Below the pieces are notes generated by a model, which was not told where the DNA came from, did not search any database, and worked only from the letters and a program-made list of their open reading frames with translations. DNA of 64,000 bases, taken from Sphaerodactylus townsendi (Eukaryota). The position numbers and the translations under genes were made by a program. The DNA lies in assembly GCF_021028975.2 (NCBI RefSeq), contig NC_059433.1:93620001-93684000 (forward strand), given 5' to 3'. Of this stretch, positions 30,892-43,181 are shown piece after piece (position 1 is the first letter of the stretch; every line of letters starts with the position of its first letter).

Positions 30892-31163
30892 TGGCAGTTG
30901 TGGGTTTTCTGGGCTGTGGAGTCATTGTGTGGTAGTTTTTGTTCCTAACGTTTTGCCCACATCTATGGCTGGCATCTTCAGAGGCATGTCACAATGAGAA
31001 ATGTGCTGCCATGGAGAGAAACACATCCCATTCTGACATGCTTCTGAAGATGCCAGTCATAGATGCAGGCAAAATGTTAGGAGCAAAAACTTCCAGACCA
31101 CGGCCACACAGCCCAGAAAACCCACAACAGCCAGTTGATTCCGGCCATGAAAGCCTTCAACAA
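30892..31163 (+). mobile_element. Penelope-like element remnant: inverted pLTR pair plus 3' extension; decayed hammerhead cores
   Basis: ~115-bp imperfect inverted arms; CTGAAGATGCCAG.CATAGATG..GGCAAAA.GTTAGGA in both arms; unpaired tail GTTGATTCCGGCCATGAAAGCCTTCAACAA. Confidence 0.8.
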
Positions 31164-31489
31164 AACTTTATCTTTAAATGAATAATCAGCCAAACTACAA
31201 ATCTGTTTTATATAAAGATAAAATGCTGTATTTTATACTAGGTTAAAATGTAGGAAATAATTATCAGTGCAACTGAGCAACTGACTTGAGTGGAGTTCTG
31301 AACAGAGCAGTATTGCTCTGTCAATGAACATACTATGCAGTACATGTTGATCAGAAATGCAGTTTTGGGAGAAAAAGACTCCCAGCACCTGGCCATTGGT
31401 ATATGATTTGCTCAGTTAAATGTTCTCTCAACCACATGATTCCCACTCACTGAAGTTTCATCAGGAATGGAAGTCTGGAATCTCAGCTG

Positions 31490-37553: not shown

Positions 37554-37700
37554 CTCCATTTTATCTTCATAACAACCTTGTGAGGTAGGTTAGGCTGAGT
37601 GTATGTGGTTGGCCCAAGGTCATCCAGCAAGCTTCCATGGCTGAGTGAAGACTTGAACCAGATCCTAGCTCAACAGTCTAACCACTGCACCATGCTGGTC
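37554..37700 (-). mobile_element. tRNA/MIR-like SINE fragment
   Basis: CTCCATTTTATC...ACAACCTTGTGAGGTAGG...GCCCAAGGTCATCCAG...TAACCACTGCACCATGCTGG. Confidence 0.65.
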
Positions 37701-38042
37701 CTTGCAGATGGCTGCACTGGAGCAGCATTATCGACTCTTAAAAGACAATGTAATTTGTCAATGGATGATTAAATTTGTTTCCCACCATTAAATCCAGAAG
37801 TCTAATTGTATTTGCTGGTTTTAGCATATAAGTTTCTAGAGCATGTCTGATGAAATAAGTGCATGGCTTCATAAGCTCTGGGACACAATACATGGCCTAG
37901 TCTTCAAGAGAACTCACCGTGTGACCCTCACTCATGAACTGAGTTTGGCTTCCTCCCTGGTTTTGAAATTTTAACAATTGACATACAAACCCAACCAACA
38001 GAATACTGGCCTTTGGCTGTCAGTTGTCCTCTAGAATTCAAG

Positions 38043-38368
38043 CAGTGGTGTAGCTACCACAGGAAAGGGTGGGACAGGCGCCCTGAGCAGATGCCATTGG
38101 GGTCGCGTGGGGGTAGAAAATAGTCCCCACACCCCTCCTCCTTCCCCCCTTTCCCTGCTCAACCAGGCCCGGCAGAGGCCGCTGCCAGGCCGGCCTCACC
38201 TGGCCAGGCCTAGTGGAGGCCGCTGCTGGGCGCCTCTGTTTGGCCCCGCTCCGCCAGGCCCCATTGCCGGCTAAGGTAAGTGGGGCATGGGGGGTGCAGG
38301 GCCCCATGCGGGGGGTGCAGAAAACTCACAGTCTGCCCTGGGCTCCATTTTCCCTAGCTACACCCCTG
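38043..38368. mobile_element. hAT non-autonomous element (GC-rich interior)
   Basis: TIRs CAGTGGTGTAGCTA / TAGCTACACCCCTG; 8-bp TSD AATTCAAG/CATTCAAG. Confidence 0.85.
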
Positions 38369-38627
38369 CATTCAAGGTAAACTGTCAGCATATTAAACAC
38401 GTTTTCTGTTTATTTAGCACCTTGTTAATTAAAAAAAGCGAACAGAAACATCTTTCAAAATGACAAAACTGTTCCAGGGATCAAAGAAGGAGGAGCATTA
38501 TGTGCAGCTAGCTTCCAGTAAAACTCTTCTCCCAGAGCTCAGTTCCAGAGAGGAAAGGTATGTTTTAACTGAATGCAGTGAAGGTGCTTTCAAATCAGGC
38601 TTGGTGGTCTAAAAAATATTACATCTC

Positions 38628-38819
38628 CAGGGTTGTAATCTCCTGGAGTTGCAACTGATCTCCAGACTACAGATATCAGTTGTCCTGGAGAAAATGGCTG
38701 CTTTGGAGGGTGGACTTTATCACATTATACCATTGCTAAGGTTCCTCCTCAGACTTTCCCCTCCACAGGTTCCACCTCCCCCCTAAACCATCAGGAATTC
38801 CCCAAGTTAGACAACCCTA
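38628..38819. mobile_element. Dispersed non-autonomous DNA-transposon family copy
   Basis: CAGGGTTGT...ACAACCCTA termini; core matches 26582. Confidence 0.6.
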
Positions 38820-39621
38820 AAGCCAAATGGCAGATTGCTGTCTGCAATTTATAATCTAAAGCGTGGGAAACAACAGAGGAGAGTAAAGACACAGATTCAA
38901 ATATCCGTTCAGCCATGGTGTTCATAGGTTGCCCTTTGGTCAGTTACTTCTCCGTGTCTCAACCTGGCCTACCTCAGAAGGCTATTATGAATATAGATAC
39001 AGGGAAAATAATCCACTACACCACCTTTTGTTCGGCATGGCTTTTGGTGGGTGAGGTTAAGTTTGTAACGGGATTCCAGATCTGCACGCGTTCTTTTTAG
39101 CCTGATTTTAAGCCAATGTATGTGTATTTTAAATTATTTCCTGTTCCATGCTTTCAAACAATAAACGGACAGATAAATAGATGAGAGCCAGCAGTTAAAG
39201 GTAGCATAGAAATGTAAATAGATAAGCAGATAAACATGCATACTAATAAGGGAATTATTCCCCATACCCTTGTGTGGTTCAGTTGTGTGCACTACAGTCC
39301 CTTTGAAATCAATGGATGCTTAACTATACGCTAGAATAGATTATTGGCTGAGTCTGCTAATGTTGAGAGAAGTTCCTGTTTGCCTTTTTCAATCTAGAGG
39401 CAGCTTTACTGAGTGGGAATTTTGTGTTTAAAAGATGACGTTTTAGCAAAAAAGAAAGCATTACTACATTTCTAATTCAGCTTGATTCTGTTTTCCCCCA
39501 CTGTAAATGAGACAATTGTTACATTTTCCTGGCATATGAGAAGGCTCCCCAAAAGCACAGATCTCACTTTGTGATGCAACAAGAATGACAGTAATTTGAT
39601 GTTCCATGTTGTTCTTTTTCA

Positions 39622-39736
39622 TTAGTATCTAGTGGTAAACCCATTGAAGTCCAGCTTCGAGATCTCCCTCTCATTAGAAAAGTCGGCTCGTTCAATTCGA
39701 GAGCTGGGGCTTCCAACACTGGACAGCCAGGTCTTC
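39622..39736 (-). CDS. Candidate terminal coding exon of an unidentified host gene
   Basis: Strong acceptor on the minus strand: branch CTGAC ~32 nt upstream, tract CCTATTGTTTTCTCTTTACAG; phase-2 reading [37 protein letters not shown] (the phase-1 frame is also open to ~39564); locally retained CpGs in non-repeat DNA. Confidence 0.45.
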
Positions 39737-40337
39737 CTGTAAAGAGAAAACAATAGGGGCAGGTGAGTCAGGAATACTGTAATATTTATTGGGTAACTTT
39801 CATTCTGCCAGTGCACTTTGGTGTGTTTAAGGAGGTTCTTTTCTACTTCTATCAAAGTCATACAATCTTCTGCAGTGCATAATGTAGTTTTACAGCCTCA
39901 TCTTTTATGCTGAGGCAGAAGCTCCTAACACCATGGCTAAGAGAACCAGCACTGAATCTGGAAGCAGATGTTAACTCCATGCAAGCTCTAGTACAGCCTT
40001 AGAGAGTGATAGGGTCTTTTCCCTTACCAATGTGGGCTCTGATGGGGGCATGCAGAAGGCTTTTAGAGAGAAGCCATGAGAAGCACTCAGTGATGGCTTC
40101 TTACACAGTAGCGACCTTTATCACTACATAGGTCATAGGACAAGCAAAGCAGCAGGATCTCTTTGTCCCATGTTTCCTGACCAGGGGAAAACTTATTTGT
40201 AAAGACCAACCTGAATTGAAATATTTATATCCACCCCTCTAGGCTGGAGGTATCTTAATAAAAGAGTATAAAACAATCACAGTTTGAAAAAATCCATGAT
40301 ACACACTCATAAAGCAGTACGAAAGTGTCACTGACCT

Positions 40338-40528
40338 TGGGTGCTGTGTGGTTTCCGGGCTGTATGGCCGTGTTCTAGCAGCATTCTCTCCTGACGTTTC
40401 GCCTGCGTCTGTGGCTGGCATCTTCAGAGGATGATCCTCTGAAGATGCCAGCCACAGACGCAGGCGAAACGTCAGGAGAGAATGCTGCTAGAACACGGCC
40501 ATACAGCCCGGAAACCACACAGCACCCA
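40338..40528. mobile_element. Perfect palindrome of two inverted Penelope-like pLTR fragments
   Basis: 95-bp arms are exact reverse complements around a single G (40433); related to 30892-31163. Confidence 0.9.
40435..40477 (+). ncRNA. Minimal type I hammerhead ribozyme motif (mirror copy on the minus strand at 40389-40431)
   Basis: Stem I TCCT/AGGA; core CTGAAGA; stem II GCC...GGC; GAAA; palindromic mini-stem III ACGT; GTC cleavage triplet (after 40473); architecture of PLE-associated hammerheads. Confidence 0.8.
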
Positions 40529-41384
40529 TATATACAAAATGTTTAAGGCTATTAAATAAAAAAACACATTAACACACGCATACTGGGAGGAGGACTAATG
40601 TCAGTGAGAGAATGCCAAACAGAACAAAAAAAGAGTCTTCACTTGCTGGCAGAAGACAATAGGAGAGAGACAGATTAATTCCGCTGGGGAAAGAGTTCCA
40701 AAGCTTCAGCTCCACTAACTTGAATGCTTTTTCTTGGGCTGTCACCCATCTAGCCTCAGATGGCAAAAGCACCCAAACTAGTGCTCTGAGGTTGATTGGA
40801 GTGGTTGGGTAGGTTTTGCATTCCATGACAAACTCTTATATGCCAGTAACTGTAAATGCTTCAAAGCTTCTAATAGCCCAATCCACAATGCTGACCCTAA
40901 AGGGGGAATCAGCAGTGTGGGTTCCAGAGAACAGGGAGAAAATACTCAGCTCTCCCCAGTAGCCCATTATCCTGAACAACTTACATCATAATTTTTGTAA
41001 GTCTGTGCCAATGGGAGGGGACATTCCCAGGCTGAAAGTGCCTCCAGGACCCCCCCCCCGCCCCAAATGGTTCCTCTCTACTCAAATGCAGGCATTTGTG
41101 GCAGTGTCCATCTGCCGCAGGGCCCAGTTTCTAGGTTTGGATGCTGCGATGGCTGGCCGCCTGGGTAAGCTCCTCAGAGCTGTGCTACTTCATGCGATTC
41201 TGGTGGCATGAACACCAGCACAATCCTTCCGCTGCTTCCAGGGCATCTTCAGTTGCCCCCCTTTTGGATCGCAGTTATACCTTTTCCACGGAAAGATTTA
41301 AGTGAGGCCAGTAGTGCTTCGGAAGAAGAGAGAGAGAGGCATGCTTCCACCATTAAAAATAGTCCCTTGATATTTGGGTCATGA

Positions 41385-41632
41385 GGAGGGTTGGAGAGGG
41401 CTTAGGAGGACTGGTGACAGGCCTGGCATAGCAGCAGTGACTTGCCACCACTACCGCACCGGCCCTGGCTTGATGTTTGGAGGGGGATGATTGGAGGGGC
41501 TTGGTAGAGTTGGTGCCAGTCCCGCGTGGGTGTTTGGGATAAGGGAGAGTTGGAGGGGGCTTTGGAGAACTGGTACCAGGCCCAGCTTGGTGTTCAGGTT
41601 GGGGAAGGGTTGGAGGGGGCTTGGGAGGGATG
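41385..41632. repeat. Degenerate G-rich minisatellite (~59-bp unit, GGTTGGAGGGGGCTT core, 4 partial copies)
   Basis: Core recurs at ~41389, 41490, 41549 and 41609. Confidence 0.65.
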
Positions 41633-43181
41633 AAGGCAGCCATTCCTTTTTAAGATATCTTTCTGTGATTTTCAGTCTCCAATCTACACTTGGCCATCAT
41701 TTCCTTCTAATTCTCATGAATCTGAGGGTTGAGAGGTCCACAAGGCTTTGACGGGCCTGTCTTATATGCATATATGCATTATGTGTGTTCACATACATGC
41801 ACTCTTTTGTTTCAAGTGTATTTGCAATGTGTGGTTTATTTATGACTGATTCACTTTCCTTTTTCCACATGATGTGCCCATCAAATTTTGCATATCAGTT
41901 CTTTCAGTAGCCAATGAGTTTCAGTGGGGGCTGCTCAGTCTGTTCCAGCATAATCATAAAGTTGCATATCATAAAAGAATATAAATAGCATTTCCAAGTG
42001 AGTTATTGGAAATAAATCCCAGTGATAAAAATTAACAGCATATCGGTTTTCTACTTCCTGGTCCACTGCTTATTGAATTAGCCTCGTTATCTCTTGGATG
42101 GAATCATAAAGGCTTGAGGTAGAAAAGAATTTGGAAGACATATTTGTTTATGATCTTTTAGCACCAAGAAAGAGATCAAACTCATGATTTTAAAATCATC
42201 CTTCAGAAGGAAGCACCAAGCAGAAAACAATCTGCTTTCTCTCCACAAGATATCTTTAGTCTATGGGAGTATGGCAAAGAGCAGCTTGGCTATGTGCAAT
42301 TTTTCAAGGTGAAAGAAAATCCCTGTCAAATCCCAGCAGTGCAAGAAAATGAGAAAGCATGATTAATAGCACCGTTGAAAGCAACAAAATAAACCGTAAA
42401 ACCTAAACTACCTAACATTGTGTAGAAAGCATGTAAAATCACACGAGACTGTCCAATGTGTGTGATGGTGGAAGCTGACAATATATATCAGAAATATGTC
42501 TGTTTGAAATGCAACGGTTGTTTAGAGCACTTATGCAAATATGCTTTTCAGCTTAAGAATTCATCTAACACAGCTCCAGGGTGATATTATCAGAATGTCC
42601 TTCATGCAAGCGAGAGACCAAGGTGCCACAAGAACTGCTTAGAAGATTCAGGAGTGATATATGAAGATGCCTAAGACCCAGTCTAGACTATTGGTCCATT
42701 TCTCTCAGTACTGTTTACTCTGATTGGCAGTTGCTCTGGCAAAAAACAAGATTTCCTACTGTAAATTGGAGTTGCCATGGATTGAACTTTGAATTTTTTA
42801 CATGCAAAGTATGTGCTCTGCCACTGAGCCAGAGACCATCTTCAGACTTACCAGCCAGGACTGCTTGTAGAAAAAGAGGAAGCCATCCACATTCTTAAAA
42901 CAAAGAGATCAACAATTGTTACTGTACCCCTGAATACATGTACTACTGAATCTGTCATGGGCCATTGTTGCACGGTCAAAAAATCCCTGGGTGAGCATGG
43001 AAAATATTCCTGTGCAGCCAGGAATTCTGTATGTCTCCCGAAGCTGCACAGGTATTCCCTGCAATACTTACCTTAGCCTGGGATTTTCAAAAATCATCAG
43101 TCTGAAGGTTCTTTACTTCTTTTCAAAAATCCCAGTGTGACCTGCTTGTGCCTGTGCCATGCAAAAACACCATGCAAAAAT

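What the first reader, a model, noticed from the sequence alone, without database searches (positions are those of the whole stretch)
40338..40528. Perfect 191-bp palindrome carrying an intact hammerhead ribozyme on each strand
Seen: zero-mismatch 95-bp arms with a 1-nt spacer, all CpGs intact, and a complete minimal hammerhead core (TCCT-CTGAAGA-T-GCC...GGC-GAAA-CGTC-AGGA) radiating from the centre in both directions. No ORF, no TSD and no 3' extension. Established: Penelope-like elements carry minimal type I hammerheads whose palindromic stem III favours dimeric cleavage, and they often form inverted pLTRs. Inference: a transcript from either strand contains one ribozyme preceded by its exact antisense, so it could fold as a long silent hairpin (ADAR/Dicer substrate) or, if the arm is removed or unwound, as a self-cleaving RNA. 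It lies ~600 bp upstream of the candidate minus-strand acceptor. It may represent an independently amplifying MITE-like or retrozyme-like family. The DNA is also cruciform-prone.
Basis: partly seen in the sequence, partly recalled or inferred. Interest (0 to 1): 0.7.

Follow-up and report, generated by a model that had tools for sequence, protein, structure and literature searches.

The report
Mis-joined Penelope retrotransposon hairpin stub
This mirror-image stretch is one of thousands of short head-to-head leftovers of a known lizard jumping gene, its ribozyme is predicted to be locked in a hairpin, and its unusually perfect, tail-less form here is most likely an assembly error that joined halves of two different insertions.

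Summary
The letters are as described (95-bp arms, 1-nt spacer, a minimal hammerhead on each strand). They are the first ~95 nt of the mRNA of a Poseidon-type Penelope-like element (PLE), joined head to head; the genome holds 2,120 such junctions with varied centres. Typical copies have one arm ending at +84, one at +118 (the 'tail') and an 8-16-bp TSD, matching the two RT start sites shown for the anole element PAc. They are likely made anew at each insertion: not a MITE or retrozyme. The window's special features (no tail, no TSD, perfect symmetry) are most likely artefacts. Its left 2.8 kb, including the last ACYP2 exon, belongs on contig C1, where the insertion has a tail, a TSD and the continuation seen in three other organisms. 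The hammerhead is predicted locked (+80 kcal/mol). Of some value: arm 5' ends pile up at a predicted transcription start and, less often, exactly at the hammerhead cut site, a possible genomic record of in vivo cleavage. The scan noted this family and both pile-ups before on other DNA of this genome.

The parts
40338..40432 (-). Left arm: Poseidon-type PLE positions -11 to +84 (ATG = +1), read on the minus strand; the short arm of the insertion that really lies in the ACYP2 intron (contig C1)
40433..40433 (.). 1-nt centre (GGAT-G-ATCC); 56 genomic junctions have it, 1,152 have the commonest GGATCC; the C1 copy shows it in the opposite orientation
40434..40528 (+). Right arm: PLE positions -11 to +84, ending at the inner RT start site, no 33-nt tail; its outer junction most likely belongs to a second insertion
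40435..40477 (+). Minimal type I hammerhead: stem I 40435-38/40474-77, CTGAAGA 40439-45, bulged T, stem II 40447-49/40463-65, GAAA 40466-69, loop-less CGTC, predicted cut after 40473
   Evidence: layout as in PMC4209133 and PMC11167929
40389..40431 (-). Mirror copy of the hammerhead; the copy read in sense by ACYP2 pre-mRNA, after its antisense
   Evidence: mirror coordinates
40445..40528 (+). First 28 codons of the PLE ORF; with the tail, 39 codons are 67% identical to the N-terminus of an 836-aa Anolis RT protein
40326..40339 (+). Left copy of the 13-14-bp target-site duplication; the right copy follows the tail at the C1 locus
39622..39736 (-). Last coding exon of acylphosphatase-2 (ACYP2); the preceding exon lies on contig C1, 60 kb from the C1 copy of this exon
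37554..40337 (.). 2.8-kb segment also present on contig C1 as an indel-rich copy (94.8%, 65 gap openings); likely misplaced here

Best explanation
The stretch is a head-to-head pair of 5'-end stubs of a Poseidon-type Penelope-like retrotransposon, likely made when both strands of a staggered cut primed reverse transcription, and the tail-less, TSD-less copy in this window is most likely an assembly chimera of two such insertions. Steps: (1) Shown: the arms are positions -11 to +84 of a PLE whose longer copies encode RT and GIY-YIG motifs. (2) Shown in the genome, matching PAc biochemistry: outer ends sit at +84 and +118 with an 8-16-bp TSD. (3) Inferred: the protein nicks both strands, each 3' end primes at one internal site on the mRNA, and both cDNAs run off the RNA 5' end at about -12, a predicted TATA/Inr start. 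(4) Inferred: the cDNA ends are joined through GATC or other short homologies, or untemplated bases, giving varied centres. (5) Predicted: in ACYP2 pre-mRNA the antisense arm comes first and locks the hammerhead, so the stub is a passenger. (6) Inferred from strong data: the assembler crossed from the ACYP2-intron insertion to another one through the palindrome.
For: Parent with RT and GIY-YIG motifs upstream of the same 128 nt; its C-terminal part is 82% identical, and the arm-encoded N-terminus 67% identical, to an 836-aa Anolis RT protein; the cut lies 26 nt after the start codon as in PAc. 2,120 junctions, control 0. In the first 50 on C1: short arm ends +83..+88 in 32, long arm +113..+118 in 38, TSD of 8-16 bp in 30, 21 centre types. 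5' ends of 90 tail-bearing arms: 38 stop before -6, 45 at -18..-6, 7 beyond; stop rate about 25-fold higher there; TATATA at -41. Asymmetric centre on the tail arm in 9 and on the short arm in 10 of 20 loci, 1 unresolved. Hammerhead fold costs 80 kcal/mol in the hairpin, 2.5 in a single arm. Chimera: duplicate on C1 with tail, TSD and the continuation found after 40339 in 3 of 3 runs of other organisms; C1 copy has 93 gap letters and 55 substitutions, 28 transitions; upstream ACYP2 exon on C1; run X19 gives one record, no variant letters, over the left flank.
Against: No read or contig spans the whole element. Left/right contig depth is 30/32 in X21 but 73/59 in X19, so a real extra copy is not fully excluded. 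The missing tail side of the second insertion was not found (0 matches). The transcription start is a motif prediction only. The assembly is error-prone at these hairpins (degraded arms), so some sampled junctions may also be mis-assembled; 20 of 50 had no TSD of 8 bp or more by my search. Fold-back of one cDNA from either end is not excluded: 427 junctions have the predicted fold-back letters.
Confidence: 0.75

Rival explanations
1. The window is real: the PLE RT primed at +84 on a read-through transcript of the ACYP2-intron insertion and copied the hairpin plus about 2.8 kb of host DNA, including an exon, to a new site (5' transduction).
For: The right end is exactly an RT start site followed by AT-rich DNA; pLTR-driven capture of host DNA is reported in rotifers (PMC3846280, passages); X19 left/right depth ratio is 1.24 against about 0.8-0.9 in two other organisms.
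Against: The right junction lies in one unbranched contig in X19 and X21, so a real copy should double left-flank depth; X21 shows 30 vs 32. The C1 copy has the centre in the other orientation and T at +15 in its clean arm where the window has C. The C1 copy is the error-laden one with a frameshifted exon.
Confidence: 0.1
2. Palindromic stubs arise by fold-back: one cDNA self-primes at its 3' end and the hairpin is then resolved by the endonuclease (the self-priming idea of Arkhipova et al. 2013).
For: 427 junctions match a 5-bp-stem, 3-nt-loop fold-back; arms often share private variants (for example L068, L093, L181, L213); several long palindromes have near-equal arms.
Against: The commonest centre has no loop (1,152); the loop sits on either arm equally (9 vs 10 of 20); many pairs have very unequal arms; PAc extends both strands in vitro (PMC11167929).
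Confidence: 0.2
3. The palindrome is a non-autonomous family (MITE- or retrozyme-like) that amplifies as a unit.
For: 1,152 of 2,120 junctions share one centre; outer ends are stereotyped.
Against: The shared centre is a GATC self-homology at the common stop; 21 centre types in 50 loci; several sequence subfamilies each make palindromes; mixed centre polarity; continuum of arm lengths with the same ends; arrangement is head-to-head, not tandem.
Confidence: 0.04

Closest known systems
PAc / Poseidon_Ac of Anolis carolinensis (Frangieh et al. 2024, PMC11167929; parts 1-2 of 4 read, plus term passages)
   Same: ORF starts at the hammerhead stem II, cut 26 nt after the start codon, tail bounded by two RT start sites (one given at +111-118), both strands extended; close protein similarity to an Anolis RT protein (that this record is PAc itself is my inference).
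   Different: Different species and subfamily. The paper's main text has no 'palindrom' hit and does not describe short head-to-head stubs. It found no RNA reads ending at the cut site, whereas genomic arms here pile up there.
Inverted pLTR / palindromic PLE junctions (Arkhipova et al. 2013, PMC3846280; Craig et al. 2021, PMC8557442 Fig. 2; passages read)
   Same: Head-to-head 5'-truncated copies, 30-40-nt tail at one end only, TSDs of about 8-10 bp, TATA and Inr-like motifs in the pLTR.
   Different: Here thousands of minimal two-arm stubs with a sharp inner stop. Those papers propose self-priming or endonuclease resolution, not two run-off cDNAs.
Minimal PLE hammerheads (Cervera and De la Pena 2014, PMC4209133; parts 1-2 of 4 read)
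   Same: Type I core, bulged base before stem II, loop-less palindromic stem III; dual motifs on opposite strands already noted.
   Different: Their opposite-strand pairs are 100-700 bp apart; here the motifs abut. Stem II is only 3 bp plus an inner pair.
Non-LTR retrozymes (bioRxiv 10.64898/2026.07.22.740005; part 1 of 5 read)
   Same: Short, non-coding, hammerhead-bearing, PLE-derived.
   Different: Retrozymes are tandem head-to-tail repeats with a hammerhead in each unit; this is a single inverted pair.

Membership tests
Penelope/Poseidon PLE (fragment of) | Parent ORF with RT and C-terminal GIY-YIG | tested here: met
   RT and GIY-YIG-type motifs in frameshifted pieces upstream of the same pLTR (motif labels recalled); 82% identity to an RT protein with PF00078/PF26215. 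Direct Pfam scan of three pieces gave no family.
Penelope/Poseidon PLE (fragment of) | Hammerhead overlapping the ORF start, cut 26 nt after the start codon | tested here: met
   against PMC11167929
Penelope/Poseidon PLE (fragment of) | 30-40-nt tail at one end only, and TSD | tested here: met
   Met for the family and at the C1 locus; absent in the window copy
Penelope/Poseidon PLE (fragment of) | Phylogenetic placement of the RT in the Poseidon clade | not tested
   No tree built; rests on similarity only
Minimal type I hammerhead | Core C3-U-G-A-N-G-A, GAAA, NUH, stems I and II | tested here: met
   Rfam models do not score it
Minimal type I hammerhead | Self-cleavage | not testable with these tools
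   Indirect only: arm 5' ends at the cut site
Non-LTR retrozyme | Tandem head-to-tail units each with a hammerhead | tested here: not met
   One inverted pair, no direct repeat of it in 38000-43000
Non-LTR retrozyme | Circular RNA | not testable with these tools
   No usable RNA run
MITE | Symmetric termini, fixed short TSD, DNA-transposase partner (definition recalled) | tested here: not met
   Asymmetric ends, TSD 8-16 bp, RT parent
MITE | Copies descend as a unit with one internal sequence | tested here: not met
   21 centres in 50 loci, mixed polarity

The most novel reading that the evidence does not exclude
The stub family is a genomic record of the Poseidon cycle: both target strands prime cDNA at the two internal start sites, both run off the RNA 5' end, and a subset starts exactly at the hammerhead cut (both arms in 11 of 50 inner junctions, with intact tails and TSDs), showing that the minimal, protein-assisted hammerhead does cleave in germ-line RNPs.
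Probability: 0.6. Interest if true: 0.5.

Novelty: new member of a known kind. Interest (0 to 1): 0.28.

Why it matters
As a locus it is ordinary, and it warns that perfect, TSD-less palindromes in this assembly can be mis-joins that move a real exon (ACYP2) to the wrong chromosome. As a family it offers a testable account of how PLE inverted pLTRs form, and indirect evidence on an open point: whether minimal PLE hammerheads cut in vivo, which RNA-seq in PMC11167929 did not show.

Tried and rejected
Rfam scans: only microRNA-like hairpin scores, no hammerhead. RNA evidence: no RNA holder listed; only contigs could be laid. Arm discordance as a test of two templates: 59 loci differ at +15 against 4 for the matching CpG control, 23 for a nearby transition control and 43 concordant C/C; the excess is about twofold, rests on single control sites and could come from polishing, so it is inconclusive. 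The ratio 1,924/35,942 was dropped as a truncation measure because about a third of 30 sampled arms belong to a sister family. A target-site deletion was my first reading of the missing TSD and was replaced by the chimera reading. A splice acceptor at -11 was considered for the inner stop: stops spread over -17..-7 and share no common upstream exon. A plus-strand exon at 39628-39753 found no relative. Pfam and NCBIfam scans of parent pieces gave nothing at cut-off. The tail side of the second insertion was not found. Literature searches showed no paper, among those listed, on two run-off cDNAs or cut-site junctions; the library lacks most subscription papers and Repbase/Dfam. Supplements of PMC11167929 gave no term hits, its figures are not held and its GenBank file could not be read; they may bear on the novelty claim.

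Full report
Observation. The window holds arms at 40338-40432 and 40434-40528, 95 nt, fully complementary, with one spacer base. A hammerhead descriptor matches once per strand and never in 100 shuffles. The parts are stem I TCCT/AGGA, core CTGAAGA, a bulged T, stem II GCC/GGC, GAAA and a loop-less CGTC, with the cut after 40473. Rfam gives only hairpin-type scores.

What it is. The window lies in a 1.81-Gb genome in which the 191-mer has many near-identical copies. Copies that run further upstream carry RT and GIY-YIG-type motifs in frameshifted pieces. Their C-terminal 197 residues are 82% identical to an 836-aa Anolis RT protein, and the arm plus tail encodes 39 residues 67% identical to that protein's N-terminus. 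With the ATG at 40445 as +1, the cut lies 26 nt after the start codon, as reported for PAc, the anole Poseidon element (PMC11167929). Each arm is positions -11 to +84 of a Poseidon-type PLE.

The family. There are 2,120 exact head-to-head junctions: 1,152 with centre GGATCC and 56 with this window's centre. A further 427 have a fold-back-like centre. In the first 50 junctions on C1, the short arm ends at +83..+88 in 32, the long arm at +113..+118 in 38, a TSD of 8-16 bp is found in 30, and there are 21 centre types; several sequence subfamilies are represented. Insertions with arms of hundreds of bases have the same outer ends. PAc primes at two internal sites that bound the tail and extends both strands. 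Inverted pLTRs, one-sided tails and palindromic junctions are known PLE features (PMC3846280, PMC8557442, PMC4209133).

Inner ends. I measured 90 of the first 100 listed of 4,822 exact-tail arms: 38 stop between +85 and -4, 45 between -18 and -6, and 7 go further. The stop rate there is about 25 times the rate before it. A TATATA lies at -41 and an Inr-like motif at about -13, so the simplest reading is run-off at a transcription start (inferred). The Drosophila Penelope promoter is TATA-less and further upstream (PMC2377424, passages), so this is not a general PLE rule. The asymmetric centre lies on the tail arm in 9 and on the short arm in 10 of 20 loci, and the window-type centre faces either way (12 vs 10 of 30, 8 unresolved). 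That fits two cDNAs joined end to end better than a single founder or one obligatory fold-back.

Cut-site class. Arms that begin exactly at +30, the base after the predicted cut, number 130 against 24, 42 and 64 at +27, +33 and +36. About a fifth of the listed +30 rows and half of the +36 rows are microhomology joins. Of 131 junctions centred in this region, the first 50 were tallied by eye: 30 of 100 arms start at +30, no other position from +28 to +38 has more than 6, and 11 loci have both arms there, often with untemplated A/T between. The 19 loci with a +30 arm all have one tail arm and one short arm, and 15 show a TSD. No templated homology explains these joins, and a pause at stem I would be expected at +34. 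This is indirect evidence of in vivo cleavage. Earlier notes of this scan gave me this lead; I tested it here.

This copy. Contigs of three other organisms follow the left flank to 40339 and then continue with other sequence. Window 37554-40337 recurs on contig C1. There the palindrome has the +118 tail, a 13-14-bp TSD matching 40326-40339, and then that same continuation. The C1 copy is 94.8% identical with 93 gap letters and 55 substitutions, a read-error profile, while run X19 shows one variant-free record over the left flank; X19 may be the source sample. The segment holds the last exon of ACYP2; the preceding exon lies on C1, 60 kb from the frameshifted C1 copy. Both outer junctions are each supported by short-read contigs, but nothing spans the element; left/right depth is 30/32 in X21 and 73/59 in X19. 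The segment's left edge abuts a run of N, so that boundary cannot be read. The window most likely joins the short arm and left flank of the ACYP2-intron insertion to the short arm and right flank of another insertion. That accounts for no tail, no TSD and, possibly, the zero mismatches.

Function. In the full hairpin the hammerhead fold costs 80 kcal/mol; in a single arm starting at -13 it costs 2.5. ACYP2 pre-mRNA would read the antisense arm first, about 600 nt before the acceptor, so the stub is predicted to be a silent intronic hairpin. ADAR, Dicer and cruciform effects were not tested.

Verdict. A new member of a known kind, with the striking features of this copy most likely artefactual. 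The family-level junction statistics are the only part of wider interest, and the scan has noted them before on other DNA.

Noticed in passing
window 37554-40337 and G000:C1:39381500-39384300: The last ACYP2 exon is intact in the window but frameshifted at its likely true place on C1; annotation of ACYP2 in this assembly is probably broken.
   Followed up: yes
window 30901-31172: An older head-to-head Penelope-like pair of a related family (about 81% to the young arm), with a spacer of about 60 nt and a tail on the right.
   Followed up: no
L099, L104, L106, L108, L112, L115, L116, L125, L126: A sister family shares the hammerhead start but has a different upstream sequence and also forms palindromes, centred further upstream.
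   Followed up: no
L019, L028, L043, L130, L170, L173: One arm is clean and the other heavily degraded, as expected when a long read passes through a hairpin; divergence estimates for this family are unreliable in this assembly.
   Followed up: partly
L244/L245 (C1:4930894-4931174): A rare palindrome with the +118 tail on both arms.
   Followed up: no
window 41387-41639: Degenerate 60-nt G-rich direct repeats.
   Followed up: no
L337, L338 (C1:125367047, C2:142215472): Intronless acylphosphatase-like open frames, 48-50% identical to the ACYP2 query; possible retrocopies.
   Followed up: no
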